Shown: in pieces, positions 13,577-40,156 of the stretch
Numbering within the stretch: position 1 is the stretch's first letter
How the letters are laid out: each line of letters starts with the position of its first letter
Made by a program: the position numbers and the translations under genes
The notes under the pieces: generated by a model
Told to the model about the DNA's origin: nothing
What the model saw: the letters and a program-made list of their open reading frames with translations, nothing else
Database searches by the model: none
Origin: a virus
Direction: 5' to 3' (one strand)
IMG/VR virus record: IMGVR_UViG_3300027704_000008
Coordinates: 32,001-96,000 of that record
Length of the DNA: 64,000 nt

Positions 13577-14572
13577 ATGGCAGATTTAACTCAGGTCATT
13601 CCGTATAGGCAGCAGCTGCAACTGGTGAAACACCCAGTTGAAGATGTGTTGCCCGCCCACTTTGCCGGCGCATATCCAAACCTGATACTGTTCCTAAAAA
13701 AATATTATGAACATGTTGACGCAGTTGGCACCCCTGAAAGTAGCATGCACAAAGTGTTTAATCTGCATGACATTAGCTCGATAGAACCACAATTTCTTTC
13801 TTTTCTTGAGCAACAGTTTCTGCTAGGTAGAACAAACTTTTCCGAGATTAGTGATAAAAGATCTGCGCTGAAGATCAACTCATCTTTGTATAAGGCAAAG
13901 GGTTCTAAATTTTCACTTGAGCAATTTTTCAGAATGTTCTTTGGTGTAGATGCTCAGGTTGAATACACTAAGAAAAATGTGTTTATAGTTGGAGAGTCAG
14001 AAATTGGGGCAGAATCTTTAAGGTATATAACCAATAACGAGCTTTATCAAACATATGCCATCTTAATTAAAACGAGTATTGGTTTAAGCTCTTGGAAGGA
14101 GTCGTATAAGCTGTTTGTTCACCCCGCTGGGATGTTTCTTGGGGCCCAGCTGTCAATTGAAACCACAAATGTTTTAGCTAGGGTAGCTATGCCAGATGTT
14201 GTTCCTTTGGTCCAGAATATTGCGGTAACTGGAATAGGATCCATGATAGGATCAACGTTCACAGCAGATATAACAGGTATAGTAGCACTCAACGATGATA
14301 GCGATTACCGTATTGGATTGGTTAATACAATACGACTATATCAAGACGTTGAATTGCCTTCACTTAGTAATACATCGGACGAACCAATAACGTTGGCTGG
14401 TATTGATGCTCAGTATAATAACATAGCCGAGCTTATGACCGCGACATCTCCTGGAATGGATAATGCCTTAGCCCTTGATGAAGAGGGTAATGTCGTTGCT
14501 GGTACCATTGGTATGTCTAATACTCACGAAACAATGGATCAGGCTAGTTATATTATTTACGATAGCGACTAA
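13577..14572 (+). CDS. gp7-like baseplate wedge initiator (short form)
   Basis: LP..F...YP....FL..YYE, LYKAKGS..S...FFR.FF, Y.Y..LIKT......WK..YK..VHPAG. Confidence 0.75.
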   Translation: MADLTQVIPYRQQLQLVKHPVEDVLPAHFAGAYPNLILFLKKYYEHVDAVGTPESSMHKVFNLHDISSIEPQFLSFLEQQFLLGRTNFSEISDKRSALKINSSLYKAKGSKFSLEQFFRMFFGVDAQVEYTKKNVFIVGESEIGAESLRYITNNELYQTYAILIKTSIGLSSWKESYKLFVHPAGMFLGAQLSIETTNVLARVAMPDVVPLVQNIAVTGIGSMIGSTFTADITGIVALNDDSDYRIGLVNTIRLYQDVELPSLSNTSDEPITLAGIDAQYNNIAELMTATSPGMDNALALDEEGNVVAGTIGMSNTHETMDQASYIIYDSD

Positions 14573-14579
14573 TATAACA

Positions 14580-14587
14580 TATAAATA
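14580..14587 (+). promoter_or_regulatory. T4-type late promoter
   Basis: TATAAATA upstream of 14611. Confidence 0.8.
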
Positions 14588-14610
14588 CCTTTAAACTTTA
14601 CGGGGTTACG

Positions 14611-16491
14611 ATGACAAAACAAATAATAAACACAGGAGAGCAGGCCAACGATGGTACTGGGGACTCTCTACGTCAAGCCTCCGAAAAGATTAATCAAAAC
14701 TTTGACGAGCTGTATACTCGCACGGCTTCCGAAGCGGCTGGATCCACTGTCACCGGATTGTCAGCTGAACGAATTGCCAGTCTCGATGGGTACATATCCA
14801 CAATCGACAATAACGTCGGCGGAATTGCGATTGGTTTTGATAGCGCGGGGCACGTTCCTTACTATAAACATCCTCTCAGCATTTTTACCAGGGACTCTGC
14901 CCACAATCCCGCGCTTAACTACTCCCTTCCAGCCGGGTTTGGTCACGATTCTCCCGGCGCCGTTTACACTTCGATGCTTAATGCACACGGATATGTGGGG
15001 GCCGGGCACACGATTGCTTTAGGAAACACTAACCCCTCAATTGGGTTTTCCAATAGTATCGAAGGCCCCATCGGTTCGTTCGTCGGCGCCACTGCACTTG
15101 CAGCCGATATAGGATTAATTACCACAGACAACCGAACTCTCGCCGGGACGCTGGACAGTGATGTCAACGCTGGCGATTTGAATATTTCAGCAGACAGAGT
15201 GGTATTCAACACGGGGACACGGTTTGCCAATATCAGATCTTCGCTGGGGACAGCAATGATAATTGATGCTAACGCCGACGTGACGATTTCCAAAAAGCTA
15301 GGAATTGGTGATACAATTAACCCGTCCGTCCAACTGCATGTAACAAAAATCAACATGGACAGTGATATGGGATTGCCGACTCCCAACAATACAACGGTCG
15401 CGGTATTCGAGAGGGAAATTCGATCTGACATTCAGGTATCGGGCGCGCTGAGTTCGGGTATTCAATTTGGATCTGCTATAAGCAATAAACCGGGGGGCAT
15501 TGTTTACACTCACTTAGACAACAACATGCGGTTTAGTACTGATCATTCTGAAGCTATGAGGATTGATGCAGAAGGGCGAGTTGGTGTAGGATCGGCCCCC
15601 ACAGAAAGACTGCACGTTAATGGTAGAATAAGAATTGGTAACCCTGGATCGATAATATTTGATCCACAGGACATACAAACGCCCGCTTTTCCTTCACACA
15701 TTAATCTATTCAACAACACATACGGATTTGGCGTAAGATCAGGATACGACTCAGATGGTGTATACAGTGGATCCCTAGAAGTGTGTAGTGAGCAAGACAT
15801 TAGGTTTAGTCGAGATGGTATCCAACAAGGTATTATGGATAGCGCTGGCACTCTCACTATGTTGGGCGGTTTCGTTGGAACTTCTTTATCCGGAGATGGC
15901 ACTAACGTGACTAGTGTGCGGGATGGTTTGATGCATAAAGTTGGACAATTTGCGCCCGTTGATGGAGTTATAACTATCCCAATACCTGCATATGGCCTGG
16001 CGCTGTCCGGTTTTGATCCCCATTATGATCGAGCTTATATCAGAGGATTGTTGCGGAGCTCAGACTCAGCTTCCCCCAGCAATGTAATTATTGAATTCAA
16101 TGGCGATTCAGCGGTAGGTCGATACCATTCACAAAGCAACGCTGTATATAATGGTGCCTCTATTATAACCGAAACCAACACTAATAAAATTGCGTCTGCT
16201 CCAGGGTTGGGTTCTGGGCTGACTACCACATTCCTCAACGGCACCGTTGATATTAAACTGGAGGGATTTGCTAATGCTTTCAATAAATACAAGACAGCAA
16301 GAACTGAGTATCACACATATAACGTTGACGATGGTCAAGAGATAGGATCGACCGCAGTTGTGTGGAATGATAGCGCTGGAACGTTTGGCGGTGGCTTGAC
16401 CCAAATAACTTCCATTCGCATTAAAGGGAAGGGTCTACAAGACTCCGATTATCCACTGGTCGGCTCTTTATCGCTGTATATGGAACAATAA
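14611..16491 (+). CDS. gp9/gp10-type baseplate-attached fibre protein
   Basis: N-terminal INTG..ANDGTGDSLR....KIN.NF.ELY; fibre repeats LGIG...P...LHV, MRID..GRVGVG..P...LHV.G. Confidence 0.75.
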   Translation: MTKQIINTGEQANDGTGDSLRQASEKINQNFDELYTRTASEAAGSTVTGLSAERIASLDGYISTIDNNVGGIAIGFDSAGHVPYYKHPLSIFTRDSAHNPALNYSLPAGFGHDSPGAVYTSMLNAHGYVGAGHTIALGNTNPSIGFSNSIEGPIGSFVGATALAADIGLITTDNRTLAGTLDSDVNAGDLNISADRVVFNTGTRFANIRSSLGTAMIIDANADVTISKKLGIGDTINPSVQLHVTKINMDSDMGLPTPNNTTVAVFEREIRSDIQVSGALSSGIQFGSAISNKPGGIVYTHLDNNMRFSTDHSEAMRIDAEGRVGVGSAPTERLHVNGRIRIGNPGSIIFDPQDIQTPAFPSHINLFNNTYGFGVRSGYDSDGVYSGSLEVCSEQDIRFSRDGIQQGIMDSAGTLTMLGGFVGTSLSGDGTNVTSVRDGLMHKVGQFAPVDGVITIPIPAYGLALSGFDPHYDRAYIRGLLRSSDSASPSNVIIEFNGDSAVGRYHSQSNAVYNGASIITETNTNKIASAPGLGSGLTTTFLNGTVDIKLEGFANAFNKYKTARTEYHTYNVDDGQEIGSTAVVWNDSAGTFGGGLTQITSIRIKGKGLQDSDYPLVGSLSLYMEQ

Positions 16492-16538
16492 TATGAACCT
16501 AAATAAACCCGATAACAAGTTAATGAGAATCCAATAAC

Positions 16539-17972
16539 ATGCCAGCTATAATTACAGATTCGCTGAGGCGAAGGGTTATATCGCAGCTCGTCGCCGATAT
16601 AAGTGACACAACCAATAATCATTATTACATTGCTATCGGTCGAGGAGAAATTTGGGACGCTCAGGATACTATTCCAACCCCCTCCAACTCGGTGCGCGAT
16701 GTGCGGCTCATGCAGAATTCAATGCAGTCTATGATACAGGTTGCTGCGCACTCACAAGTTGTACCTAGAAACAACTGGGCAAACAACTCGTTGTACTCCA
16801 GTTACGATGATGCTACTGTTGAATATCCAATCCATCCTTATTATGTGTTATCTGACGTCAACCGTGTGTACCTCTGTATAAGGCAGGGAACGGATACCTT
16901 AGGAACGACAATCCTTTCCACAGTCCAGCCGACTGGCGTTAGCGTCAATCCATTCGAGACAGGCGATGGTTATATATGGAAATTTTGTTATTCATTAAAC
17001 TCGGTAGATGCCAATAATTTTCTTGCGGCTAACTTTTTCCCCGTACAATATATAGACACTGCTGCGGGAGCGGAAGCGGGTGCCCTTGGGTCGGTGATTG
17101 AACAGGCCACTATCCACAATACAGCAGTCCCTGGTCAGATAAACACTATCCAGGTGACCAATGGGGGATCGGGATACACCTCTGTGCCTGACATCGCTAT
17201 TTTGGGTGATGGTACAGGAGCGCAAGCAACAGCTTTTATATCCAACGGCACGGTTGTTAAAATCGATATTGACGACAGCGCTGGCGTCGCATTCGGCGCT
17301 GGATCTAAAATGGGATCGGGGTATAACTTTGCTAGCGTAGCAATTACTGGGGGTGGCGTTTCAGCCGGAGCTGCTGGCCAGGCAATAGCAAGGGCCACGA
17401 TATCACCAAAACTTGGATTTGGATATGATCCCACAGAAGACTTAAAGGCAACATCTTTAATGTTCGCGGCCAAGCCCTCTGGGTCTCAAAATAATGACTT
17501 TGTCATAGGAAACGATTTCAGACAAGTTGCGTTGGTTCGTAACCCCAAACAATGGATTTCTGCTGATTCGGATTATACAGATGGGACGGGAACGTGTTTG
17601 AAGTATTTGACGTTCTCAACAGTTAGCCAACCTTTCTCACCTGATGCAATTATTTTGGGTGGCAACTCGGGTGCCAAGGCTATAGTAGATACAGTGGTGG
17701 GAAGTAATCTATACTACCACCAGGACGAAACTACTGGATTTGCGGACTTCAACGTTGGTGAGTCTGTATCTGAAACTACAGGTAACGGATCTGGACAGTT
17801 ATTCGGCCAGATGGTTTATACTCTTCCTGATGGCAGTACAGTATCTGGGGCCAAATTCATTCCACCAGATATAAATCCACGCAGTGGTGATTTATTATTC
17901 CTCGACAATCGTGGGGCGGTGGTTCGGTCCGCTGAACAAACAGAAGACATTAAAATAATAGTTAAGGTGTAA
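16539..17972 (+). CDS. gp8 baseplate wedge subunit
   Basis: M.AIIT..R, YY..IGR...W, V.R..W, YYV....VY.C, DGYIWKF, SG..LF.DNR..V.R..EQ.EDIKII. Confidence 0.88.
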   Translation: MPAIITDSLRRRVISQLVADISDTTNNHYYIAIGRGEIWDAQDTIPTPSNSVRDVRLMQNSMQSMIQVAAHSQVVPRNNWANNSLYSSYDDATVEYPIHPYYVLSDVNRVYLCIRQGTDTLGTTILSTVQPTGVSVNPFETGDGYIWKFCYSLNSVDANNFLAANFFPVQYIDTAAGAEAGALGSVIEQATIHNTAVPGQINTIQVTNGGSGYTSVPDIAILGDGTGAQATAFISNGTVVKIDIDDSAGVAFGAGSKMGSGYNFASVAITGGGVSAGAAGQAIARATISPKLGFGYDPTEDLKATSLMFAAKPSGSQNNDFVIGNDFRQVALVRNPKQWISADSDYTDGTGTCLKYLTFSTVSQPFSPDAIILGGNSGAKAIVDTVVGSNLYYHQDETTGFADFNVGESVSETTGNGSGQLFGQMVYTLPDGSTVSGAKFIPPDINPRSGDLLFLDNRGAVVRSAEQTEDIKIIVKV

Positions 17973-17983: not shown

Positions 17984-20900
17984 ATGACAAACTTCAATAT
18001 TTATGGCGGGGAAACAGTTCTCCCAATCCCAACAACATCCGATAATCCTTTAATAGATAACTTATTTCGATCTACATATAAGGATGATTTTTCAGACAGC
18101 GCTGGATACCATCGAGTTTTGTTTAACTCTGGCAAAGCCATTCAGGCTCGAGAGTTAACGCAGCTCCAGACTATTATTCAAAGGGAAATCTCTAGGTTTG
18201 GTAATAATATATTCAAAGAGGGAGCCGCAGTAAACCCAGGCGGTATGACTGTAACTGCCTATGATTATGTAAAAGTAACCAGCAGCAACTGGAACAATGA
18301 CACCTCAGTTTTATTGCGGGGTGGTGTTATTACTGGTGCCAATGGAGCAGTAGCTAAAATACTGGATAAAGTCAATGCCGTAGGAGACGATCCTAATACC
18401 CTGTATATACAATATACCTCAACCCCATCCGGATCAGGTGGGTCAGATACTACAACAGCGCCCAAATTTCAGATTGATGAAGTATTGACTGTTGTAAAGC
18501 CAAATGGCGGTTCAGTAGAGTTAACCTGCGCAAACGAGGCTCCGTCCGGACAAGGATTGGTGGCATCAAGTGCTGCTGGGGATTTCTTTGTTGAAGGACA
18601 CTTCATCTTCGCTCATCCTCATTCTATTATTATCAGTAAATATAGCACAACCCCCACAGCTGTTATTGGTTTTAGAATTATTCAAGACATTGTTACGGTT
18701 GCTGATACCAATGATCTGTATGATAATCAGGGAGCCCTTCCAAACTTCACCTCGCCGGGTGCCGATCGTTATAGAATTAGACTTCAGTTAGCAGATCAAG
18801 CCACCATAGATTCTGACACAAATTTTGTATACGTTGCCAAAATTAGAGACGGGGCAATTGTTACTCAGGTCGAGGGGGATGAAGGATATAATAAGATACT
18901 AGATTTGATGGCTCTGCGAACTAAAGAAGAGTCTGGAGACTATATTGTCAAGCCATTTGATTTTAGTGTATCTCAGGATTCGGCTCTTTCTCCTGCGTTT
19001 AACGTTAAGTTATCGTCAGGGGTTGCATATGTCAATGGATATCGAGCGGAGCACTCCGACAGAGAAGTTAGGCTTTTATCTGAAAAGCCAGTAAGTGTTG
19101 TCCAAATGTCAGAAGAAACTATTCCGATCAACTATGGTAATTATGTATTATTCTCTGTCCAGAAAGGACTTCCAAATATAACTACATTCCCGACCGTTAA
19201 TTTGTATGCTTCGATTGGTGGGACAGGCACTATTATTGGAACGTGTCGGATTAGATCTGTGGCTCGGGATGGGGCGAATTATCGAGCTTACCTGTTTGAT
19301 ATTAAGATGAATGCAGGACAAAGTGCTAGATTGATTAGGAGTATAGGAACTAGCACGACGGACTATATTAATCCACTAATAGAAGCTGATTACGGTCTGC
19401 CAACGATTAGAGGGACGGCTGATCACAGTTTACTATTTCCTATGCCGCGGCTGCGCTCTAAGGTTATGGAAGATGTAGACCTGTTTGTGATGAGAGAGTT
19501 CCCGCTGACGGTGAGTGGTAACTCTGTAACAGTCTCAGTGACCGCCACCGGAGAATCATTAACCCAGACTGCCAGTTGGATCGTCGCCGCCGCTGCTGGT
19601 GATATACTATCGGGCTTTACGGTGACCGTTAATAGCTCCACGTCCATTACTCTTTCTGGAGACGGCACTACTTTACCCAACGGCGCCACCACCATTATGG
19701 CTATTGTAAAAGTGGGCGCCGGCACAGTACGATCTAAAACTTTAACCTCAGCCACAGTAGCGGTAGGATTGGACAGCGATGGGTCTGGCAATAAGTGGGT
19801 ACCTCTAAACCGTGCTGATATATTCTCGGTTGATAGGGTGCGACTGGTAGACAGCGATGGTACAGAAGATAAGGCAAGTTTGTTTGATCTGGATAATGGT
19901 CAACGGGACAACTTTTATAGTCTTGGGCGATTGCTCCTAAAGCCTGGACAGTCAGCGCCGTCTGGGAATATTTTTGCTAGGTTTACTCACTTTGCTCATG
20001 GAGCCGGAGACTTCTTCGCTATTAACTCTTATGCGGCAGGTCCAAATTACGCTGATGTTCCAAAATTTAGAAAGAATACTGCCGAAACCGTCAACCTAAG
20101 AGACGTGTTAGACTTTAGGCCCGTCCAAGATTCAAACGGACAATACCCTGCTGCCAACATTAACCAGTTGCCGTTATCTGGAACGCTGGTAACATCCGAC
20201 ACCACATATTATCAGGGGCGCAAAGATACAATTGTTATTAACGAAAAGGGCGTGGTGTCCATTATTAAAGGAAACGAATCCCTCGCCCCCCAGTTTCCGG
20301 ACACGAACTCCATGACTGGAGTTCTTCCGTTGTATAATGTTGAAATGAACCCCAATACGTTGCACACCAACGACTTGCAAGCAACACGGGTTAGGGCTAG
20401 ACATTATACTATGGCAGATATTGGTGATATAGAAGATGACCTGGTCGATCTAAAACGAACTACAGCCCTTAGCCTTCTTGAAACTAATACAGCTAATTGG
20501 CAAGTGTTCGATAGCGATGGCTTGTCAAGAACGAAATCTGGGTTCTTAGTAGATAACTTTAAAAACTACAGTATGTCAGATTTTACGGGCATCAACGGTC
20601 AGGTTAACCCGAACTATCGAGCAGTGGTCGATCCTCAGCTAGGAATGGTACGTCCATCGTTTGTAGATAATAATATAAAAATGTTTGCGGATGTGGCGGC
20701 AAACGGTAGCAATGTAGTACAGAAAGGGGATAACATATACTTAGCCTATACCCATGAAGTAGAGGTGGAACAACCAATCTGCTCGGATACTGAGAATGTT
20801 AACCCGTTTCAGGTTACGACGGGGGCAGGCAATCTGACCATTAGTCCAACAAGGGATGAATGGGCGAGTATGATAGTCCTTGCTGATGAGGATTTGCCTG

Positions 20901-23221: not shown

Positions 23222-23439
23222 TGTCTAATCTAATTCCAGTCGAAGGTAATGGAAATTTCGCAAGGGATCCGGTTTCTGGCGCGGTGCTTAATATAAATAC
23301 CGCAGAGGTATATCAAGCGAGACTACGCAAGGCGGCTAGGAAACGGGCCATCCTTGCCAATGACAATCGCATCCAAGAGATAAGCGATCGAATGGACTCA
23401 CTTGACCATAAACTAAATTTGATACTAGAGAAGCTATAA
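23221..23439 (+). CDS. conserved small protein downstream of VrlC
   Basis: VEG....RD..SGA.LN motif with coiled-coil C-terminus. Confidence 0.75.
   Translation: MSNLIPVEGNGNFARDPVSGAVLNINTAEVYQARLRKAARKRAILANDNRIQEISDRMDSLDHKLNLILEKL
23292..23299 (+). promoter_or_regulatory. probable internal late promoter for the fibre module
   Basis: TATAAATA about 140 nt upstream of the 23439 ATG. Confidence 0.5.
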
Positions 23440-24818
23440 TGGCCATAGAAATTGTAAACAATCAAGATACTATTGATAACTTCAAGACGAAAGTTAATCG
23501 TCTGTCAAACCTTATTGGCGACTTATCTCAACTCGACACAAAAGATAGTAATGTGATGGATGCGATTAATCGTATTGATTTGACGGCGGCTACGACTGTA
23601 CTTGTAGATCGAATGAATGCGGATTCAGCGGCGCTGGTGGCATATAGAGTTCTCCAAGATTCCGCTACAGCAGCTGATACACTAGCCAGTGTCGCTGGTG
23701 ATAGTGCCAACCTAGCTCTTATAAACGCTAACATTGCTACATTGGCAAAAAGAGATAGCGCTGGTTATATTAAAGACTTAAACTTTACTCATGCCATGCT
23801 AAGCTCTGTCGTAGCAAACCAACACATTGACTGGACCACCGACCAAGGCGGTACCAATATTCACACAGGCAACTATACCAACTCCCAGTCCACCTACGCC
23901 TCTATTCACTCCGGCTTGACCGGCGCGAGTTTGTCAACACAGTCCGGCGCAACCGTAGTAAGTTCGATCACTGTAAATACCAAAGGTCACCTTGTAACGA
24001 CACCGGGAACACGTGAGTTAACCCCAGCTAATATTGGTGCTTTGGCTAGCAATGGAACAGCAGATCAAGCTAACGGGCTGAAAGATGAGAACAGTGATTA
24101 TAGGACTGCTGACTATCTCAGCACTGCCAATACAATTGTGCGGCGCAACGCTGATGAATATATTAGAGTGAACGGAGTTATCTTGGATGCCGCCTACAGC
24201 CAAGCCGTTACCACACCCACAAGCTTTGTCACATTGAACGCCTCCGGCGACGCTAGACACCTTAAAGAGACAACCGTAGCTAACGCAAAAACAACACTAG
24301 CGGCCGATGGGTTTGATGTACCAGCCGGGGAAACTTTGGGTGTGGGTAGTTCCGGGTGGATGCAAACTAACAACACTAACAACGCATGGTTAAGATCTCA
24401 AGGTTCCGCACCAGTATATGTGGATGTTAACATCAGCTCTGGTACGAGAGATTGGCAGGGAGCAGACGCAGTCGGGATTGCAACTAACGGCGACATTGCT
24501 GCAGGTTGGTCCGACATGAGGCTGAAGACAAAGGTAGGTGAACTAGATAATGCTCTAGAAAAAGTTTGTTCTTTATCTGGCTTTCTATATCAGTCCAGCG
24601 ATCTTGCTCTAGAATATGACTTGCCCCCCAAGGATGTCATTAAGGTGGGACTATCCGCTCAAGAGGTGCAGAAGGTTCTGCCCCAAGTTGTTAGTGGTGC
24701 ACCAATGAACATTGACCATGGAACAGACTTTCTGAATGTGGACTATGCTAAAATGGTACCTCTTCTCATAGAAGCAATAAAGGAGCTAAAAGACCAGGTC
24801 GATAGGATTAAAGCATAA
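23439..24818 (+). CDS. tail fibre with C-terminal intramolecular chaperone (peptidase S74)
   Basis: N-terminal DT......KVN......GDL..L motif; C-terminal SD.RLK....AL.KV..L.G, G..AQEVQ.VLP.VV, V.Y..MVPLLIEAIKEL. Confidence 0.85.
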   Translation: MAIEIVNNQDTIDNFKTKVNRLSNLIGDLSQLDTKDSNVMDAINRIDLTAATTVLVDRMNADSAALVAYRVLQDSATAADTLASVAGDSANLALINANIATLAKRDSAGYIKDLNFTHAMLSSVVANQHIDWTTDQGGTNIHTGNYTNSQSTYASIHSGLTGASLSTQSGATVVSSITVNTKGHLVTTPGTRELTPANIGALASNGTADQANGLKDENSDYRTADYLSTANTIVRRNADEYIRVNGVILDAAYSQAVTTPTSFVTLNASGDARHLKETTVANAKTTLAADGFDVPAGETLGVGSSGWMQTNNTNNAWLRSQGSAPVYVDVNISSGTRDWQGADAVGIATNGDIAAGWSDMRLKTKVGELDNALEKVCSLSGFLYQSSDLALEYDLPPKDVIKVGLSAQEVQKVLPQVVSGAPMNIDHGTDFLNVDYAKMVPLLIEAIKELKDQVDRIKA

Positions 24819-29213: not shown

Positions 29214-29982
29214 TCAGTATTTCTACCATGAAAAGACTCGAAAGACAGTTGCTCTATTTGGTTCCTTATTTAATAACATATATGTGATACGAACAGATAA
29301 CAACAACCAAGTGCTCAGCCAAGTAAAGGTTCCTTTAGCGTACGCTCCAAGACGTAAGTATCTTGAGCGAATTCAGCAGATGAATAATGGAGAGGAGTTG
29401 GAAAGGCAGATTGCCATCAAGCTTCCCCGCATGTCGTTTGAGATAGTAGGGTTGTCGCGAGACGATCAAAGAATGTTGCGCTCTACAAATACCGTGAGCC
29501 GCCCAGGAACAACTGCAAATAATAAGATGCGGTTCTATACAGGCGTACCGTATACAATCAACTTCCAGATGAATGTGTACAGTAAAAACCAAGATGATGC
29601 CCTACAAATAGTGGAGCAAATTCTACCATACTTCAAACCTCAGTACAACGTTACCATTAAGCCAATTGATGGGTATGATGATTTTAAAGAGGATATTCCA
29701 ATTACTCTACAAGCTGTTTCTTTCATGGACGATTTTGAAGGATCTATAGAGCAGCGTAGGACTATTATATACACTTTAGACTTTGAAATGAAGACAACGT
29801 ATTATGGGCCCACGGACAGTATATCTAGTATCATTAGGCAAGTTGATGGTATACTGGTGGACAAGGACGGGAGCAGAATGGAAACGTTAAGAGTCACTCC
29901 AACGCCTGTTGGGGTTAGTCCTGATAGCGATTATGGATTTAATGAAGTTATGATATCGGGTCTCGATAGTGCAGGAGCATAG
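29206..29982 (+). CDS. gp15 tail sheath stabiliser / completion protein
   Basis: FYH...RK.V..FG.LFN.I, KVPLAY.P, LPRMSFE, DALQIVEQILP.F.P. Confidence 0.93.
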   Translation: MFNQYFYHEKTRKTVALFGSLFNNIYVIRTDNNNQVLSQVKVPLAYAPRRKYLERIQQMNNGEELERQIAIKLPRMSFEIVGLSRDDQRMLRSTNTVSRPGTTANNKMRFYTGVPYTINFQMNVYSKNQDDALQIVEQILPYFKPQYNVTIKPIDGYDDFKEDIPITLQAVSFMDDFEGSIEQRRTIIYTLDFEMKTTYYGPTDSISSIIRQVDGILVDKDGSRMETLRVTPTPVGVSPDSDYGFNEVMISGLDSAGA

Positions 29983-32348: not shown

Positions 32349-34139
32349 ATGGCTAAGTCAGCTTCTCCTGCAGTCACCACAACAGAGATAGATCTCACTA
32401 GTGTCGTCCCTAGTGTTCAATCCTCTACTGGTGCCATGGTAGGCAATTTTAGATGGGGGCCTGTTGATCAGCCCATATTAGTGGGTAACGCAGAAACTCT
32501 CGTAGAGACCTTCGGCAACCCAGCAGATGACACATCAGCAGTTGATTTTTTATCTGCTTCGCAATTTCTGCGATATGCAAGTACGTTATACGTAACAAGA
32601 TCAGTAACATCTGCGGCAAAAAACGCGACGGCAAGAACTGATCCTCAAGGCGGGTCGTTTATAATCAAAAACGATGCAGCATATGACCTTTCTTATCCGG
32701 GAGCTTTTGGTGCTGACAGTGCAGACCAATATACTGGTATGTTCTTTGCTAAGCATGCTGGTGCGTTGGGAAATAGTATTAAGGTCTCTATCGGTGCTGC
32801 TTTGGTCGATGCGAGTACCGCTACTGCAGCGAATAATGCTTGGAATTATGGATCTTTATTTCCTGAGGCGCCAGGTACCAGTAAATTTGCGGCCGATCGG
32901 GGTGCATCTCGCGATGAGGTCCACGTCGTAGTTGTAGATGTAGATGGGAAATTTACAGGAACCCTTGGTGCCGTACTAGAGACCTACAGCTTCTTATCTG
33001 TAGCTCCCGGTGCTAAGACCACAGATGGTGGAAATAATTACCTACCTGATGTTATTAATTCAGCTAGTAATTATATCCGATTTGGACATTACGACACAAC
33101 TTTTGCTCCTACAGGAACCTATTGGGGAGTCGAATCCACCGTTGCGGTGCCCCGAAATTACAGTACTGGGTCGGTAGCAGCAGTTTCGACACTCAACGCC
33201 ACTTCATCCCTATCATTTGTTGGTGGAGCCGACAGTGGTGCACTAGAGGATTCAGATCTGGTCGGTGCTAGCGGCTCAAATGCAGTATATACTGATGCCG
33301 AAACAATTACAGTTGATTTTCTAATTGCGCCCGGAATGTCTGCCACAATAGATCATAAAGCAGTTGTGGCCGATTTGTTAGCAATAGCAACCGCTCGTAA
33401 AGACTGTGTTGTTGTAGCATCCCCTAGCCGAGCATCAGTCGTAAATAATTCTGATCCGGTTACTGCTACCATAACAGAGTTTTCAGAGATGTCTTCATCG
33501 TACTTGTTCGTGGAGAATAATTACCTTAAGGTATTTGATGCCCAGAACGATAAATTTATATTCATACCTGCCGCATCTTCCACAGCTGGTATCATGGCCG
33601 CGTCTGATTTGGGTCAGGGTCCATGGTTCTCCCCTGCTGGACAGAAACGGGGCCAGTACCTCAACATAGTTGGTTTGGCTTATAGCGCTACTAAGGTACA
33701 ACGCGACTTGCTTTACAATGCTGGGATTAACCCAGTAGTTAACCTACCTGGCCGTGGGGTTATGTTGTTTGGTGACAAGACTAAAGAAACTCGACCCAGT
33801 GCATTTGACCGCATTAACGTGCGACGATTGTTCTTGGTAGTTGAACGATCAATTAGTCTGGCAGCCCGTAACGTTATGTTTGAATTCAACGACGAGTTTA
33901 CTCGAGCCGAATTCGTAAATATTATAGAACCATTCCTGAGAGAAATCAAAGGACGTCGAGGAATCACTGAGTTTTATGTACAGTGTGATGTGACAAACAA
34001 TACGCCTGCAGTCGTTGACCGCAATGAATTAATCGCCACAGTCTTCATCAAGCCAGCCCGTTCAATTAACTTCATAACACTTAATTTTGTTGCAGTTAGA
34101 ACCGGCGTTGACTTCGAAGAAGTAGTTGGCACAGTATAA
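32349..34139 (+). CDS. gp18 tail sheath
   Basis: SP.V...EIDL, F.WGP, WFSPAG..RG, FDRINVRRLF, FEFNDEFTR, IKPARSINFI.LNF. Confidence 0.95.
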   Translation: MAKSASPAVTTTEIDLTSVVPSVQSSTGAMVGNFRWGPVDQPILVGNAETLVETFGNPADDTSAVDFLSASQFLRYASTLYVTRSVTSAAKNATARTDPQGGSFIIKNDAAYDLSYPGAFGADSADQYTGMFFAKHAGALGNSIKVSIGAALVDASTATAANNAWNYGSLFPEAPGTSKFAADRGASRDEVHVVVVDVDGKFTGTLGAVLETYSFLSVAPGAKTTDGGNNYLPDVINSASNYIRFGHYDTTFAPTGTYWGVESTVAVPRNYSTGSVAAVSTLNATSSLSFVGGADSGALEDSDLVGASGSNAVYTDAETITVDFLIAPGMSATIDHKAVVADLLAIATARKDCVVVASPSRASVVNNSDPVTATITEFSEMSSSYLFVENNYLKVFDAQNDKFIFIPAASSTAGIMAASDLGQGPWFSPAGQKRGQYLNIVGLAYSATKVQRDLLYNAGINPVVNLPGRGVMLFGDKTKETRPSAFDRINVRRLFLVVERSISLAARNVMFEFNDEFTRAEFVNIIEPFLREIKGRRGITEFYVQCDVTNNTPAVVDRNELIATVFIKPARSINFITLNFVAVRTGVDFEEVVGTV

Positions 34140-36849: not shown

Positions 36850-36863
36850 ATCTTAAAACTATT

Positions 36864-37052
36864 ATGAAATCATTTCAAGAAATTAGGGAAGCCGCTTCTT
36901 ACTCCAAGAGAGTGAAAGGTATAGTAACTACCGTCTCTAAGAAGGGTAATAGGTTTGTTGCTACTATTGACGGCGATAGGTTAGACGACTATAAAACCGA
37001 GAAAGAAGCAATAAAGATGATCGACGCTTTTATGAAAAATTACAAAGGGTAA
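36864..37052 (+). CDS. small prohead core / internal protein (gp68 position)
   Basis: MKSFQEIRE-A N-terminus; directly upstream of gp21. Confidence 0.65.
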   Translation: MKSFQEIREAASYSKRVKGIVTTVSKKGNRFVATIDGDRLDDYKTEKEAIKMIDAFMKNYKG

Positions 37053-37055
37053 ACC

Positions 37056-37718: not shown

Positions 37719-37730
37719 CAGGAGTCCTCT

Positions 37731-38777
37731 ATGGATTACGAAAACCAAGAAGAGCTCCACGATGACGAAAACGACATGGTGGAAACAGAAGAAGCATTTG
37801 ACGGCGCTAATGCCGAAGCAGATGCCGTAGCGTCAGTCGCAAAGACTAATAGCACTAAGCAAGCTCCGGCTCGCAAAGGTGACAAGAAGAACGGTGAAGC
37901 ACCCAAAAATGCGGGCGCTAAAATTGGAGCAATGTATGACAAAATGAAGACTCTTTCGAAGGAAGAGTTGGAAGTTGCATACGAATTACTTATGAGAGAA
38001 GATTTCGTTGAAGCTAGCGAAATTGATGAGTCTGAATTTGACGTTGACGTTGATGTTGATTTCACTGAAGACCTTAACGCTCTTGTTGATTCTGAAGCTA
38101 CTCTTTCTGAGGAGTTTAAAGAAAAGACAGCTGTTATCTTTGAAGCTGCTATCAAGTCAAAGGTGAAAGAAGAAATCAATCGCCTTGAAGGAGAATATGA
38201 AACTTTGATTGAAGAAGAGACTCAAGCAATTCGTGAGTCCTTAGTTGATCAGGTAGATGGTTACCTTAATTATGCCGTTGAAACATGGATGCAGGAGAAT
38301 GAATTAGCAATTGCTGGTGGCCTTCGGTCCGAGATCGCAGAAAACTTTATGAAAGGATTCTTTGATCTTTGCCAGGAAAACTACATTGAAGTTCCTGAAT
38401 CTAAAGTCGATCTGGTTGATGAACTTGCAGAGCAAGTTGAAGGACTAGAAAGCCAATTGAGCACTTCAATTGACGAAATGATCGAGATGACTCAAGTTAT
38501 TGAGTCTATGTCCCGAGCAGCTATCGTCAGTGAAGCGTCTTATGACCTTGCCGACACCCAAGCAGAAAAGCTTGCCGGTCTTGTTGAAGAACTGGACTTT
38601 GACGACGCAGAAACTTTCCTTCAGAAAGTTCTCGTATGCAAAGAATCATACTTCGGTAAAAAGATCGTAGAAAGCGATTCTTCAATTGCAGAAGAGATGG
38701 ATTCTGGAGAGCCTGAAAAGGAAGTTTCTCCTTTAATGGATTCATACCTTACTGCAATCCGTAAAACACACAAATAG
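37731..38777 (+). CDS. gp22 prohead core scaffold
   Basis: Acidic; LSEEFK.K...IFEAA, VD.YL.Y.VE.WM.EN, KESYF, M..Y. Confidence 0.92.
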   Translation: MDYENQEELHDDENDMVETEEAFDGANAEADAVASVAKTNSTKQAPARKGDKKNGEAPKNAGAKIGAMYDKMKTLSKEELEVAYELLMREDFVEASEIDESEFDVDVDVDFTEDLNALVDSEATLSEEFKEKTAVIFEAAIKSKVKEEINRLEGEYETLIEEETQAIRESLVDQVDGYLNYAVETWMQENELAIAGGLRSEIAENFMKGFFDLCQENYIEVPESKVDLVDELAEQVEGLESQLSTSIDEMIEMTQVIESMSRAAIVSEASYDLADTQAEKLAGLVEELDFDDAETFLQKVLVCKESYFGKKIVESDSSIAEEMDSGEPEKEVSPLMDSYLTAIRKTHK

Positions 38778-38800
38778 TAAAACAATAAGGAGTTTCCACA

Positions 38801-40156
38801 ATGGAACAATCATACGATCAATTGATCGAAAAATGGAGCCCAGTGCTCAACGAAGAGTCAGCCGGAACTATCACTGACCGTCACCGTAGGTCGGTCACCG
38901 CTGTCCTTCTCGAAAACCAACAAATGGCAATGCAAGCGCAACGTGCTCAAGAGACTGGTTTCTTAACAGAAACTGCCCCCACAAATACTGGTAGCATCGG
39001 TACTTGGGATCCCGTCTTGATCAGCCTTGTTCGTCGTGCAATGCCTAATCTTATGGCATATGACGTTTGTGGCGTTCAGCCAATGACTGGACCTACTGGT
39101 CTGATCTTTGCGATGAAAGCTCGCTACGGCACATCTGCTTCAGCTAATGACGGTACTAACGAAGCTCTGTACGCAGAAGCTGATACATTCCACAGCTCTG
39201 ATTCAGCTGACGGTGTTGGCCAAGCTCTGGGAACTCTCGGTGCTTCAGGTTTATCCGGTGTAACTGATACAGATGGTGACAGCGACATTGGTGACCAACG
39301 AACTGGTCCCGTTTTTGGTAACGGAATGACTACTCCAACCGCTGAAGGCCTTGGCGCTGGAGCAGGTAACGATTTTGCCGAGATGGGTTTCTCAATCGAG
39401 AAGTCTTCTGTAGAAGCTAAGTCTCGTGCCCTGAAAGCTGAGTACTCACTTGAACTGGCACAAGATTTGAAAGCTATCCACGGTCTTGACGCTGAGACTG
39501 AATTGGCCAACATCTTGTCTACTGAGATCCTCGCGGAAATTAACCGTGAAGTTATCCGTACTATCAACAGCCAAGCTAAGACTGGTGCGAGTACAGCTAA
39601 TGTTGTTACAAATGGTATCTTCGACCTCAGCACTGATGCTGATGGCCGTTGGTCTGCTGAGAAGTTCAAAGGTCTTATGGTCCAATTGGATCGTGAATGT
39701 AACGTAGTTGCTAAAGAAACTCGTCGTGGTAAAGGTAACATCGCAATCGTCTCTTCTGACGTTGCTACTGCCTTGGCTGCTTCTGGTGCATTGGACTATG
39801 CTCCTGCTCTTAGCACTAAGTTAGATGTTGATGATACTGGCAACACTTTTGCTGGTGTTCTTAATGGTCGAATCAAGGTTTACATCGATCCCTATTCAAC
39901 TGCTGACTACGTCACTGTTGGTTATAAAGGTACTAACCCTTATGACGCTGGTGTATTCTACTGCCCTTACGTACCTCTTCAGATGGTTCGTGCTGTTGGC
40001 GAGAATGATTTCCAACCACGTATCGGGTTCAAGACTCGTTACGGTATGGCTTCAAACCCATTTGTTGGAACTACACGTCATGATCAGACTGGCTTGGCTG
40101 CTGCCAAGACTAACCAATATTATCGTATTTTTCGTGTGGACAACATCCTCACATAG
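38801..40156 (+). CDS. gp23 major capsid protein
   Basis: KW.PVL, LLENQ, DPVLISLVRR.MP, VQPMTGPTGLIFA, ELAQDLKA.HG.DA, FQP.IGFKTRYG. Confidence 0.97.
   Translation: MEQSYDQLIEKWSPVLNEESAGTITDRHRRSVTAVLLENQQMAMQAQRAQETGFLTETAPTNTGSIGTWDPVLISLVRRAMPNLMAYDVCGVQPMTGPTGLIFAMKARYGTSASANDGTNEALYAEADTFHSSDSADGVGQALGTLGASGLSGVTDTDGDSDIGDQRTGPVFGNGMTTPTAEGLGAGAGNDFAEMGFSIEKSSVEAKSRALKAEYSLELAQDLKAIHGLDAETELANILSTEILAEINREVIRTINSQAKTGASTANVVTNGIFDLSTDADGRWSAEKFKGLMVQLDRECNVVAKETRRGKGNIAIVSSDVATALAASGALDYAPALSTKLDVDDTGNTFAGVLNGRIKVYIDPYSTADYVTVGYKGTNPYDAGVFYCPYVPLQMVRAVGENDFQPRIGFKTRYGMASNPFVGTTRHDQTGLAAAKTNQYYRIFRVDNILT

What the first reader, a model, noticed from the sequence alone, without database searches (positions are those of the whole stretch)
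13577..40156. Virion-wide D-S-[A/D] motif: a possible modification sequon on surface proteins
Seen by manual count: DSA/DSD occurs 10 times in the 626-aa gp9/10-like fibre (FDSAG, RDSAH, LDSDV, MDSDM, YDSDG, MDSAG, SDSAS, GDSAV, NDSAG, QDSDY), 7 times in VrlC, 4 times within about 50 aa of the tail fibre, and twice each in gp7 (including its C-terminus YDSD*), gp8, gp15 (near-terminal LDSAGA*), gp18 and the variable loop of gp23, once in gp14. I found none in portal, terminase, scaffold, protease, gp43, gp46, gp41, UvsW or UvsX. Codons vary, so the signal is at protein level and not a DNA repeat. Established: D-(S/T)-small/hydrophobic is the O-glycosylation sequon of Bacteroidota, and some phages glycosylate their virions. 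Inference: an enzyme, probably phage-encoded outside this window, decorates these serines to coat the whole particle; alternatively they bind a decoration protein or cations.
Basis: partly seen in the sequence, partly recalled or inferred. Interest (0 to 1): 0.9.

Follow-up and report, generated by a model that had tools for sequence, protein, structure and literature searches.

The report
Asp-Ser-Ala/Asp tag on phage fibres
The outer baseplate and fibre proteins of this marine T4-like phage, and of a large group of uncultured relatives, carry the three-residue motif Asp-Ser-(Ala/Asp) four to seven times more often than chance; it is probably a tag for attaching sugar to the virus particle, but no modification has been shown.

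Summary
Genes in 13577-40156 hold 33 DS[A/D] against 7.1 expected, and 0 of 3000 shuffles reach that. DSA and DSD rank first and second of 8000 tripeptides. Reorderings of the same residues, DT[AD] and DS+hydrophobic are not enriched.

"Virion-wide" overstates it. Most of the signal sits in the gp7-like, gp9/10-like fibre, gp8, VrlC and tail-fibre block (25 vs 3.7). Neck, sheath and head are marginal (8 vs 3.45).

The motif is a clade trait. Of 114 gp8-anchored marine loci, 100 show at least 3x excess, 14 show under 2x and none lies between. T4-like coliphage wV7, P-HM2, S-RIM8, RN05-S, HTVC008M and Melnitz are flat.

The enriched lineage shares a cassette outside the window: GT25a, GT25b, X and Y. 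Y is a 201-aa protein whose best fold match is the flagellin glycosyltransferase Maf. In this genome the cassette lies beside Glf, methyltransferases and GT8-like paralogues.

Best reading (about 0.45): a Ser O-glycosylation sequon used by this cassette. Against it, no modification is shown, and one contig with an intact cassette has no excess.

This scan noted the same motif on another genome (e1-5836339).

The parts
13577..14572 (+). gp7-like baseplate wedge protein, 331 aa; DS[AD] at residues 241 (DDSDY) and 329 (C-terminal YDSD)
   Evidence: Counts. Pfam Baseplate_wedge PF23786. In the enriched loci this family has 198 sites vs 25.9 expected. 17 of 63 homologues have the motif in their last 6 residues.
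14611..16491 (+). gp9/10-like baseplate fibre, 626 aa; 10 DS[AD] sites (residues 77, 95, 182, 250, 380, 410, 485, 499, 587, 611)
   Evidence: 10 vs 0.65 expected; shuffle p 2e-4, the floor for 5000 shuffles. T4_gp9_10_N at residues 3-49. In relatives of 70-86% identity the Asp-Ser pair is kept at 10 of 10 sites and the full motif at 8 of 10.
16539..17972 (+). gp8 baseplate wedge protein, 477 aa; sites at 246 (DDSAG) and 343 (ADSDY)
   Evidence: PHROG 438 and Pfam Phage-Gp8. In the AF2 model (mean pLDDT 83.3) both sites lie in loops just after strands. Family in the enriched loci: 226 vs 39.5, at recurrent hot columns.
17984..23221 (+). VrlC / DUF4815 protein, 1745 aa; 7 sites (38, 276, 332, 597, 623, 843, 1467)
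   Evidence: 7 vs 1.47, p 0.0016. DUF4815. All 7 are kept in the 86%-identical relative L011; 0 of 7 are kept in C48C1. Family in the enriched loci: 483 vs 103.5.
23439..24818 (+). tail fibre with C-terminal Peptidase_S74 chaperone domain, 459 aa; 4 sites at residues 62, 74, 88 and 106 in an Ala/Leu-rich stretch
   Evidence: 4 vs 0.66, p 0.0034. Peptidase_S74 at residues 358-418. All 4 are kept in the 72%-identical relative L011.
26184..26939 (+). 251-aa ORF of no known family; 1 site (WDSAS, residue 183)
   Evidence: no PHROG or Pfam match.
28326..29213 (+). gp14 neck protein, 295 aa; 1 site (SDSAS, residue 189)
   Evidence: Not conserved in G001, C48C1, HTVC008M or Melnitz.
29206..29982 (+). 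gp15 tail sheath stabiliser, 258 aa; sites at 240 (PDSDY) and 254 (LDSAGA, the end of the protein)
   Evidence: SPDSDY is kept in G001 and C48C1; it is DADDDF in HTVC008M and DDGDF in Melnitz.
32349..34139 (+). gp18 tail sheath, 596 aa; sites at 123 (ADSAD) and 301 (EDSDL)
   Evidence: Both lie in stretches that are gapped or different in G001, C48C1, HTVC008M and Melnitz.
38801..40156 (+). gp23 major capsid protein, 451 aa; sites at 134 (SDSAD) and 160 (GDSDI) in a variable loop
   Evidence: The loop is an insertion relative to C48C1, HTVC008M and Melnitz, and the motif is not shared with G001.

Best explanation
D-S-[A/D] is a short linear acceptor motif (a sequon) on surface loops and chain ends of the outer virion proteins. 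These are the gp7-like protein, the gp9/10-like fibre, gp8, VrlC and the tail fibres, and more weakly neck, sheath and capsid. Its serine is O-modified in the infected cell's cytoplasm, most likely with a sugar, by phage enzymes encoded outside this window.

The candidate machinery is a conserved cassette at genome 17,651-20,374: two GT25 glycosyltransferases, an unknown protein X, and Y. Y is a 201-aa protein with the Maf / sialyltransferase / MptE fold. Upstream of the cassette is a strain-variable set of sugar-tailoring genes; in this genome these are UDP-galactopyranose mutase, three methyltransferases and four GT8-like paralogues.

Shown here: the motif excess, its order specificity, its restriction to outer proteins, its restriction to one lineage, its retention in close relatives, its position in loops, and its co-occurrence with the cassette. 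Inferred: that Ser is modified at all, that the modification is a glycan, which enzyme starts it, and that the glycan sits on the mature particle.
For: 1. The excess is order-specific. In the window's 13577-40156 genes DSA and DSD rank first and second of 8000 tripeptides, and reorderings of the same residues are flat. In 552 outer proteins (308,138 aa) from related loci, DSD is 846 vs 135.8 and DSA is 621 vs 147.8. By number of distinct sequence contexts these rank first and second among tripeptides with expectation of at least 20.

2. The motif is Ser-specific with a narrow third position. In that set DT[AD] is 0.6-0.7x; DSE, DSQ, DSI, DSM and DSH are 0.05-0.46x.

3. It is compartment-specific. 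In the enriched loci: gp7-like 198/25.9, gp8 226/39.5, VrlC 483/103.5, gp9/10-like 75/13.0, tail fibre 59/7.9. The inner baseplate is low: gp6 1/26.8, w8895 3/18.7, w7828 4/16.3.

4. It behaves as a discrete lineage trait. Of 114 gp8-anchored loci, 100 are at least 3x, 14 are under 2x and 0 lie between. wV7, P-HM2, S-RIM8, RN05-S, HTVC008M and Melnitz are flat. At homologous positions C48C1 has other Asp/Gly turn sequences, for example FSDSAGY against YNAEDGY.

5. It co-occurs with the cassette. The GT25 pair is present in all 7 enriched genomes or contigs that reach 25-36 kb upstream of gp8: own, G001-G003, G007, G009 and G015. It is absent from 6 of 7 non-enriched or partly enriched named phages. 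Among 50,697 named phage records, Y is found only in C48C1, the one named phage with enriched fibres (15/3.2, 11/3.9, 5/0.8). Y is flanked by GT25b in 65 of 65 IMG/VR loci with enough upstream sequence, and by GT25a in 59 of 65. Contigs found through Y alone gave ratios of 4.9, 5.4, 9.0, 2.9, 2.1 and 1.4.

6. The best fold match of Y is the flagellin O-glycosyltransferase Maf, 5mu5: Z 9.1, rmsd 3.7, 152 residues aligned. It is followed by the Campylobacter sialyltransferase 2p56 (Z 7.9), an MptE-type HPPK and mammalian sialyltransferases. Foldseek's top hit is CstII (E 4.8e-3, TM 0.42). From recall, Maf enzymes glycosylate Ser/Thr of a structural protein in the cytoplasm, which is where a virion protein would have to be modified.

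7. Sites are retained. 13 of 13 sites are kept in a 72-86% identical relative, with about 7.1 expected and joint probability about 3e-4.

8. In gp8 the sites, and the family's hot columns, fall in loops or at strand and helix ends. Sites in the capsid and sheath sit in lineage-specific loop insertions.
Against: No call shows that any serine is modified. The tools give no coordinates, so solvent exposure was inferred only from secondary structure and indels.

The co-occurrence with the cassette is largely one lineage inherited together, so it is not a set of independent events. The Fisher p values ignore phylogeny.

There is one counterexample. G038 has intact GT25a, GT25b and Y, yet has 4 sites vs 2.9 in the 19 kb around gp8. 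G032 is weak at 9 vs 4.4. Conversely, C48C1 has Y but no GT25 and is enriched only in its fibres, partly through tandem repeats.

The assignment of Y is weak. The model has mean pLDDT 67. Z 9.1 is only just above the tool's stated background of 7-8. Pfam PF01973 does not match anywhere in the genome. A profile search of PDB sequences found nothing relevant. Y has only about 200 residues, against 632 for the Maf chain. No CMP-sugar synthetase (PF02348) is encoded.

Gly is enriched after the motif (13 vs 4.4 in the window; 2.5x in the clade) and a hydrophobic residue before it. That also fits a plain beta-turn.

Published opinion on related phages assigns such glycosyltransferases to changing the host O-chain (PMC7029224, passages read). 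Other phage glycosyltransferases modify DNA.

No TATAAATA late-promoter motif lies in front of the island.
Confidence: 0.45

Rival explanations
1. The motif is a purely structural loop: an Asx/Ser-type tight turn, helix cap or cation-binding loop. This lineage happens to use it in its beta-rich outer proteins, it was inherited by descent, and nothing is attached to it.
For: Gly follows the motif 13 times vs 4.4 expected in the window, and 2.5x across the clade. Hydrophobic residues precede it. In the gp8 model the sites sit at strand ends and loops. At homologous positions non-enriched relatives have other Asp/Gly turn sequences. The Asp-Ser pair is conserved while the third residue drifts to Ser or Asn in fibre relatives. 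G038 carries the cassette without the motif.
Against: A general turn preference should not be all-or-none between sister lineages (100 loci at least 3x, 14 under 2x, none between). It should not exclude Thr (DT[AD] 0.6-0.7x). It should not single out two tripeptides among 8000. The motif also occurs at the very C-terminus, where no turn can follow: own gp7-like YDSD, and 17 of 63 homologues with the motif in the last 6 residues. No shared domain explains it, because the motif-bearing proteins show no BLAST-level paralogy.
Confidence: 0.25
2. The motif is a sequon for a different serine modification, or for an enzyme other than the GT25/Y cassette. Examples are phosphorylation, or a host-encoded glycosyltransferase. 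The glycosylation island would then serve host-surface or DNA modification.
For: The motif statistics fit any trans-acting serine-modifying enzyme. The imperfect match with the cassette (G038 and C48C1) leaves room for another enzyme. PMC7029224 (passages read) interprets glycosyltransferases in related phages as O-chain modifiers. The hosts of the enriched lineage are unknown.
Against: The gene-content comparison was made with only three partial enriched genomes against HTVC008M and Melnitz. Besides three baseplate genes, a 170-aa ORF, a methyltransferase and a GT8-like paralogue, it singled out the GT25 pair and Y as lineage-specific. No kinase candidate was seen, but no kinase family was searched for.
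Confidence: 0.12
3. The motif is a docking site, not a modification site. A decoration protein, an assembly chaperone, a cation or a host-surface ligand would bind D-S-[A/D] loops on the outside of the particle.
For: The location is the same as for the main reading: outer proteins, loops and termini. Lineage restriction would follow if the binding partner is lineage-specific.
Against: A three-residue motif with weak flanking preferences carries little binding energy for a protein partner. No candidate partner gene emerged from the comparison. Marine relatives living in the same cations (HTVC008M, Melnitz, cyanophages) lack the excess.
Confidence: 0.08
4. The excess is a chance or composition artefact: Asp/Ser/Ala-rich loops, internal repeats, or a post-hoc choice of motif.
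For: Some sites come from local repeats. The own tail fibre has 4 sites within 47 residues, and C48C1's fibres contain tandem units. The neck-to-head excess in the window is marginal on its own (8 vs 3.45, p 0.025).
Against: 0 of 3000 shuffles reach the observed count. Reorderings of the same residues are flat. The two tripeptides rank first and second without prior choice. They also rank first and second by distinct contexts in 308,138 aa from other contigs. Without the fibre and the tail fibre the region still has 19 vs 5.8 (p 1e-5).
Confidence: 0.01

Closest known systems
General protein O-glycosylation of Bacteroidota, sequon D-(S/T)-(A/I/L/V/M/T) (abstract of PMC8550257 seen in a search listing)
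   Same: A three-residue acceptor motif that starts with Asp followed by the hydroxyl residue. It marks many unrelated proteins of one compartment. DSA fits both motifs.
   Different: Here Thr is not used (DT[AD] 5 vs 6.8 in the window; 0.6-0.7x in the clade). I/L/V/M/T at position 3 are neutral or depleted, and Asp at position 3 is the commonest form. From recall, the Bacteroidota system works in the periplasm on exported proteins with a host enzyme. Virion proteins assemble in the cytoplasm, and here the candidate enzymes are phage-encoded.
Virion glycosylation of mycobacteriophages by phage-encoded glycosyltransferases (Freeman et al. 2023, Cell Host Microbe; only the title was seen, in the reference list of PMC12801897; content recalled)
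   Same: Phage genes for glycosyltransferases and, as proposed here, sugars on the phage's own structural proteins.
   Different: As I recall it, that case concerns capsid and tail-tube subunits of siphoviruses of Actinobacteria, was shown by mass spectrometry, and defined no short sequon. Here the targets would be baseplate periphery and fibres of marine T4-like myoviruses, a sequon is inferred, and nothing is shown biochemically.
Maf flagellin glycosyltransferases (PDB 5mu5, Magnetospirillum magneticum) and the CstII/Cst-I sialyltransferase fold
   Same: Protein Y of the conserved cassette gives Maf as its best structural match (Z 9.1), followed by Cst-I, an MptE-type kinase and mammalian sialyltransferases. 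CstII is top in Foldseek. From recall, Maf enzymes O-glycosylate Ser/Thr of a structural protein inside the cytoplasm.
   Different: Y has 201 residues against 632 in the Maf chain, so it holds only the central domain. Pfam PF01973 does not match. No CMP-sugar synthetase is encoded. No sequon is known to me for Maf enzymes.
Glycosyltransferase clusters in the host-recognition cluster of pelagimyophages (PMC7029224; passages found by term search were read)
   Same: Marine T4-like phages with many LPS-type glycosyltransferase and sugar-nucleotide genes, variable between strains, near or among tail-fibre genes.
   Different: That paper proposes modification of the host O-chain to block co-infection, and in the passages read it mentions no motif in virion proteins. 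The cultured pelagimyophage HTVC008M has neither the motif excess (12 vs 13.7) nor GT25 or Y.
Serine-aspartate repeat glycosylation in staphylococci by SdgA/SdgB (recalled, not looked up)
   Same: Serines flanked by Asp (DSD) are the acceptors of a cytoplasm-made glycosyltransferase acting on surface adhesins.
   Different: Those are long uninterrupted SD repeats in cell-wall proteins of Gram-positive bacteria, modified by GT4-type enzymes. Here the sites are isolated tripeptides in folded phage proteins.

Membership tests
Bacteroidota O-glycosylation sequon D-(S/T)-(A/I/L/V/M/T) | Asp at position 1 and Ser at position 2 | tested here: met
   33 DS[AD] sites in the region. DSA is the most enriched tripeptide.
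Bacteroidota O-glycosylation sequon D-(S/T)-(A/I/L/V/M/T) | Thr is accepted at position 2 | tested here: not met
   DTA 3 vs 3.69 and DTD 2 vs 3.14 in the window. DTA 0.72x and DTD 0.62x in 308,138 aa of related outer proteins.
Bacteroidota O-glycosylation sequon D-(S/T)-(A/I/L/V/M/T) | Position 3 is A, I, L, V, M or T | tested here: not met
   Only Ala is enriched. In the clade DSI is 0.46x, DSL 0.66x, DSV 0.78x, DSM 0.09x and DST 0.85x, while DSD, which is not part of that sequon, is 6.2x.
Bacteroidota O-glycosylation sequon D-(S/T)-(A/I/L/V/M/T) | Substrates are exported to the periplasm, and the host is a member of the Bacteroidota | not tested
   No signal-peptide prediction was run and the host is unknown.
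Phage-encoded virion glycosylation (mycobacteriophage type) | The phage genome encodes glycosyltransferases | tested here: met
   Two GT25 above the Pfam cut-off (51.7 and 48.7 bits vs 24), UDP-galactopyranose mutase (182.6 bits) and three methyltransferases. Also a GT29-like ORF (32.9 bits vs 23).
Phage-encoded virion glycosylation (mycobacteriophage type) | Glycan demonstrated on virion proteins | not testable with these tools
   This needs mass spectrometry or glycostaining of particles.
Maf-type protein O-glycosylation (flagellin glycosyltransferase, Pfam PF01973 MptE-like) | Maf / MptE / sialyltransferase-like central fold | tested here: inconclusive
   Best VIA match is 5mu5 Maf: Z 9.1, rmsd 3.7, 152 aligned. 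Cst-I is at Z 7.9 and an MptE-type HPPK at Z 7.1. Foldseek's top hit is CstII at E 4.8e-3. The Atlas's nearest named cluster carries PF01973 in 13% of members. However, the model has pLDDT 67, and the tool states that a best Z of 7-8 is common background.
Maf-type protein O-glycosylation (flagellin glycosyltransferase, Pfam PF01973 MptE-like) | Match to the Pfam family model | tested here: not met
   PF01973 searched over the whole genome at E up to 1: no match. Pfam scan of Y: 0 families.
Maf-type protein O-glycosylation (flagellin glycosyltransferase, Pfam PF01973 MptE-like) | CMP-nonulosonic-acid donor pathway at hand | tested here: not met
   PF02348 (CMP-sugar synthetase family) has no match in the complete genome. 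Supply by the host cannot be excluded.
Glycosyltransferase family 25 | Match to Pfam PF01755 above the curated cut-off | tested here: met
   Genome 17651-18376 scores 51.7 bits and 18385-19047 scores 48.7 bits, with cut-off 24. Tandem pairs at the same relative place in G001-G003, G007, G009 and G015.
Plain beta-turn / Asx-turn loop | Located in tight turns, with Gly favoured just after | tested here: inconclusive
   Gly follows 13 of 55 DS sites vs 4.4 expected. The gp8 sites are in loops. But Thr is excluded, the trait is all-or-none between lineages, and the motif occurs at chain ends.

The most novel reading that the evidence does not exclude
A very abundant lineage of uncultured marine T4-like phages (Y homologues on at least 547 IMG/VR stretches) runs its own sequon-directed protein glycosylation system. 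A minimal Maf-like transferase starts a glycan on the serine of D-S-[A/D] in the cytoplasm. Two GT25 enzymes extend it, and a strain-variable set of GT8-like enzymes, methyltransferases and a galactofuranose pathway finishes it. Fibres and baseplate periphery then carry a variable sugar coat. This would be the first short acceptor sequon defined for a virus of bacteria, and a new layer of host-range and defence-evasion variation in the ocean.
Probability: 0.3. Interest if true: 0.9.

Novelty: new variant of a known kind. Interest (0 to 1): 0.72.

Why it matters
If the serines are glycosylated, receptor-binding parts of a major group of ocean phages are sugar-coated by the phage itself at a simple, predictable motif. 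That would change how fibre structures, host-range predictions and phage-host arms races in the sea are read. It would give an explicit function to the many LPS-type glycosyltransferase genes of marine myoviruses, so far assigned to host-surface modification (PMC7029224). It would also provide a compact sequon-plus-enzyme pair that is easy to test by co-expression. Even if nothing is attached, the motif is a sharp sequence marker: it separates one lineage from its sisters with no intermediate cases.

Tried and rejected
**DNA-level repeat.** Rejected: serine codons are both AGY and TCN.

**Local composition of loops.** Rejected: reorderings of D, S, A and of D, S, D are flat.

**A shared domain that spreads the motif.** Rejected at BLAST level: an all-against-all search of the genome's ORFs found no paralogy among the motif-bearing structural proteins. 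PHROG cross-hits between the gp7-like protein, gp8 and gp14 were not followed to residue level.

**A trait of this one phage.** Rejected: its gp8-centred region, at 26 vs 6.5, is typical of 100 related loci.

**A trait of all T4-like or all marine T4-like phages.** Rejected: wV7, P-HM2, S-RIM8, RN05-S, HTVC008M and Melnitz are flat.

**Avoidance of the motif in inner baseplate proteins as a sign of a promiscuous enzyme.** Not claimed. gp6 has 1 vs 26.8 in the enriched loci, but also 0 vs 3.5 in the non-enriched ones. DS followed by any polar residue is low in the inner set. DSA and DSD are not among the 15 most depleted tripeptides there.

**Phosphopantetheinyl transferase (Asp-Ser acceptor).** P-HM2 is annotated with one but has no motif excess. 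Dropped.

**UDP-galactopyranose mutase as the linked gene.** It occurs in C48C1 and in T4-like Aeromonas, Rhizobium and other phages, but in only 1 of 80 Y-bearing loci. It belongs to the variable part of the island.

**Sequence homologues of the fibre.** Only 4 close ones were found, so the fibre itself was not folded.

**Profile search of PDB sequences with Y.** Nothing relevant.

**Literature.** Searches found no paper describing a D-S-[A/D] motif in phage virion proteins. Only listings, abstracts and the passages named elsewhere in this report were seen. Supplements are closed; the supplementary gene tables of PMC7029224 could bear on which glycosyltransferase families its phages hold.

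**Not done.**
- Solvent accessibility could not be computed, because no coordinates are returned.
- Complex prediction was not used, since the tool advises against enzyme-substrate pairs.

Full report
**What the window is.** The window is bases 32,001-96,000 of a complete 138,622-bp phage genome with terminal repeats. It is a T4-like marine myovirus. Its major capsid protein is 66% identical to that of Phage C48C1 (Kyanoviridae), and 56-59% identical to those of Stenotrophomonas phage DLP_6, the Melnitz phages, HTVC008M and several cyanophages. Genes 13577-40156 run from a gp7-like wedge protein through a gp9/10-like fibre, gp8, VrlC (DUF4815), a tail fibre with a Peptidase_S74 end, neck proteins, terminase, sheath, tube, portal, protease and scaffold to gp23.

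- Against shuffles of each protein, the region has 33 DS[A/D] where 7.12 +/- 2.62 are expected. None of 3000 shuffles reaches 33. The remaining genes of the window have 5 vs 8.39.
- The motif was not cherry-picked. Among all 8000 tripeptides, DSA (19 vs 3.82) and DSD (14 vs 3.33) are the two most over-represented.
- After Asp-Ser, 33 of 55 next residues are Ala or Asp.
- The six orderings of D, S, A and the three of D, S, D are flat except DSA and DSD. So Asp/Ser/Ala-rich loops do not explain the excess.
- DT[AD] (5 vs 6.8) and DS followed by I, L, V, M or T are not enriched.
- Serine codons are mixed AGY and TCN.

**'Virion-wide' is too strong.** Genes 13577-25948 hold 25 sites vs 3.7. Genes 26184-40156 hold 8 vs 3.45 (p 0.025). 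The inner baseplate and hub genes at 100-13572 hold 1 vs 4.0. Genes beyond 40156 hold 4 vs 4.5. Without the fibre and the tail fibre the region still has 19 vs 5.8 (p 1e-5).

**It is a lineage trait, not a peculiarity of this phage.** Using gp8 as an anchor I fetched 80 IMG/VR loci and 64 metagenome loci with up to 10 kb on each side.
- Over all their ORFs there are 2386 DS[A/D] vs 584 expected. The equivalent stretch of this window, at 26 vs 6.5, is typical.
- The distribution is bimodal. Of 114 loci with at least 2000 residues outside the inner-baseplate families, 100 have at least 3x, 14 have under 2x and none lies between. After removing duplicates these are 75 and 13.
- In the enriched loci the excess sits in the gp7-like family (198 vs 25.9), gp8 (226 vs 39.5), VrlC (483 vs 103.5), the gp9/10-like proteins (75 vs 13.0), tail fibres (59 vs 7.9) and ORFs with no homologue in this window (393 vs 56.2). 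gp6 has 1 vs 26.8, and two other inner proteins have 3 vs 18.7 and 4 vs 16.3.
- In 552 outer proteins (308,138 aa), DSD is 846 vs 135.8 and DSA is 621 vs 147.8. Among tripeptides with expectation of at least 20, they rank first and fifth by ratio, and first and second by number of distinct contexts.
- In the same set DSS is 1.9x and DSG 1.6x. DSE, DSQ, DSI, DSM and DSH are depleted, and DT[AD] is 0.6-0.7x.
- Flanking preferences are weak: hydrophobic or aromatic at -1, and Gly at 2.5x just after the motif.
- Named relatives outside this lineage are flat: coliphage wV7 (3 sites in 16 structural proteins), P-HM2 (1 vs about 5.8), S-RIM8, RN05-S, HTVC008M (12 vs 13.7) and Melnitz (17 vs 13.1).
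- C48C1 is intermediate. VrlC, gp8 and a 3347-aa protein have none, but three fibre proteins have 15 vs 3.2, 11 vs 3.9 and 5 vs 0.8, partly through tandem repeats.

**The sites are constrained and sit in loops.**
- In a relative with 72-86% identity (L011), 13 of 13 sites in gp8, VrlC and the tail fibre are kept. About 7.1 would be expected from overall identity, with joint probability about 3e-4.
- In fibre relatives of 70-86% identity, the Asp-Ser pair is kept at 10 of 10 sites. The third residue changes to Ser or Asn at two sites.
- Across more distant relatives the sites turn over. In gp8 they occupy 32 alignment columns, grouped around own positions 21-25, 40-43, 173-179, 246, 338-343, 387 and 431.
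- In an AF2 model of gp8 (34 sequences, mean pLDDT 83.3), those positions are loops or the ends of strands and helices.
- In C48C1 the homologous positions hold other Asp/Gly-rich sequences or gaps.
- The capsid and sheath sites lie in loop insertions that are absent from relatives.
- The motif also ends some chains: own gp7-like YDSD, gp15 LDSAGA, and 17 of 63 gp7-like homologues with the motif in their last six residues.
- Solvent exposure itself could not be computed here.

**A sugar-modifying island lies outside the window.** Genes 11,286-20,374 form one tight block:
- four paralogues whose nearest Atlas clusters carry GT8 in 12% of members (a lead only);
- two Methyltransf_11 genes;
- UDP-galactopyranose mutase (182.6 bits);
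- a Methyltransf_24 gene;
- two tandem GT25 genes (51.7 and 48.7 bits, cut-off 24);
- an unknown 241-aa protein, X;
- a 201-aa protein, Y.

A GT29-like ORF lies elsewhere, at genome 101,462-102,079.

Just downstream of the island, a TATAAATA late-promoter motif precedes a 456-aa ORF. Its 379-aa paralogue has 5 DS[A/D] vs 0.31 expected. No such promoter motif lies in front of the island itself.

**The conserved part of the island tracks the motif.**
- PF01755 (GT25) pairs occur in own, G001, G002, G003, G007, G009 and G015. These are all seven enriched genomes or contigs that extend 25-36 kb upstream of gp8. G022 reaches about 30 kb and has none.
- GT25 is absent from wV7, P-HM2, HTVC008M, Melnitz, S-RIM8 and C48C1. 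RN05-S has a single copy and is not enriched.
- I compared gene content using three partial enriched genomes against HTVC008M and Melnitz. The genes present in at least two enriched genomes and in neither of the two others were the GT25 pair, Y, the Methyltransf_24 gene, one GT8-like paralogue, a 170-aa ORF and three baseplate genes.
- The gene order GT25a, GT25b, X, Y is syntenic.
- Among 50,697 named phage records, Y matches only C48C1. In IMG/VR it is found on at least 547 stretches.
- In 65 of 65 Y loci with enough upstream sequence GT25b is adjacent, and GT25a in 59 of 65. The GT8-like genes, methyltransferases and the mutase are variable.

**A test with contigs found through Y alone.** Seven such contigs also contain gp8. 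Their outer-protein ratios are 4.9, 5.4, 9.0 (two copies of one phage), 2.9, 2.1 and 1.4. The contig at 1.4 (G038) has intact GT25a, GT25b and Y. So the link is strong but not perfect, and most of it is shared ancestry. The Fisher values do not correct for that.

**What Y looks like.**
- Pfam and PHROGs give nothing for Y.
- Its relatives conserve G-N-G-x-S near the N-terminus, C-N about 20 residues later and G-F-[DN]-S further on. As I recall, this resembles the nucleotide-sugar site of CstII-type sialyltransferases.
- The AF2 model is mediocre (pLDDT 67).
- Foldseek's best hit is CstII (E 4.8e-3, probability 0.97, TM 0.42).
- The exhaustive VIA search puts the flagellin glycosyltransferase Maf (5mu5) first, at Z 9.1 with rmsd 3.7 and 152 residues aligned. 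Next come SteA (Z 8.4), Cst-I (Z 7.9) and an MptE-type HPPK (Z 7.1), with mammalian sialyltransferases lower. The tool warns that a best Z of 7-8 is common background.
- PF01973 itself does not match the genome.
- No CMP-sugar synthetase is encoded.
- I therefore call Y Maf/sialyltransferase-like in fold, not a member of that family.

**Reading.** The best explanation is an acceptor sequon for serine O-glycosylation of outer virion proteins by this cassette, at about 0.45. The argument rests on features that a trans-acting enzyme explains better than folding needs:
- an order-specific, Ser-specific three-residue motif;
- on unrelated proteins of one compartment;
- in loops and at chain ends;
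- switched on or off between sister lineages with no intermediates;
- retained in close relatives but mobile over longer times;
- co-inherited with a conserved core of glycosyltransferases beside a variable tailoring set.

The main rival, at 0.25, is a lineage-typical turn or cap motif with nothing attached. The Gly preference and the G038 case favour it. Smaller rivals are another serine modification or another enzyme (0.12), and a docking site (0.08).

Two of its defining features fail here: Thr at position 2, and hydrophobic residues at position 3.

**Novelty.** This scan reported the same motif, with the same reading and a 'small sialyltransferase-like gene', on another genome (e1-5836339). 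My analysis is an independent repeat on different DNA. It adds the bimodality, the GT25 pair, the Maf-like fold match and a counterexample. My six literature searches found no paper describing this motif. The nearest published statement is that pelagimyophages carry many LPS-type glycosyltransferases among their fibre genes, interpreted as host O-chain modification (PMC7029224, passages read).

Noticed in passing
outside the window: genome 21,908-23,278 and 23,351-24,490 (L002:3908-5278 and L002:5351-6490): Two paralogous ORFs of 456 and 379 aa (27% identity) with no Pfam or PHROG match and no homologue in G001-G003, C48C1, HTVC008M or Melnitz. The first is preceded by a TATAAATA late-promoter motif. 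The second has 5 DS[AD] vs 0.31 expected. They are probably lineage-private virion proteins next to the glycosylation island.
   Followed up: partly
outside the window: genome 101,462-102,079 (L003:6462-7079): A 205-aa ORF matching Pfam Glyco_transf_29 (sialyltransferase), 32.9 bits against cut-off 23. This is a second sialyltransferase-like gene besides Y. It has no homologue in the six comparison genomes.
   Followed up: no
outside the window: genome 13,753-14,766 (L001:13753-14766): UDP-galactopyranose mutase (PF03275, 182.6 bits). tblastn finds it in 90 phage records, among them C48C1 (57%), T4-like Aeromonas phages, Rhizobium and Agrobacterium phages and Streptococcus suis prophage-like records. 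So a galactofuranose pathway recurs in phages.
   Followed up: partly
window 2992, 11180, 14580, 27000, 27534, 32270, 36842, 41152 (+ strand): TATAAATA, the T4-type late promoter motif, lies 10-72 bases upstream of eight gene starts in the window, among them the genes at 3034, 11217, 14611 (the fibre), 27017, 27564 and 32349 (sheath). The whole genome has 18 sites in all, against about 12 expected by chance.
   Followed up: partly
window 17984-23221: Residues 1202-1370 of VrlC match a solved structure family, 9euf and 14 more entries ('DUF4815 domain-containing protein | ORF65', E 9e-31). A structural template for part of this large protein therefore exists.
   Followed up: no
outside the window: genome 118,830-119,900 (L004:5830-6900): A 356-aa BspA-type leucine-rich-repeat protein (LRR_5, 243.6 bits) with 2 DS[AD] sites. 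This is unusual cargo for a T4-like phage.
   Followed up: no
L279 (G038:C1:34971-54172) and L245: An IMG/VR contig with intact GT25a, GT25b and Y, but no DS[AD] excess around gp8 (4 vs 2.9). Its fibre genes lie beyond the contig end. It is the key exception to the cassette-motif link.
   Followed up: partly
L009:26305-31011 (Phage C48C1, record 126,305-131,011): The 1568-aa gp9/10-like fibre of C48C1 holds 15 DS[AD], mostly as alternating TDSDI and IDSA[DE] units, which looks like a tandem-repeat fibre shaft built around the motif.
   Followed up: no
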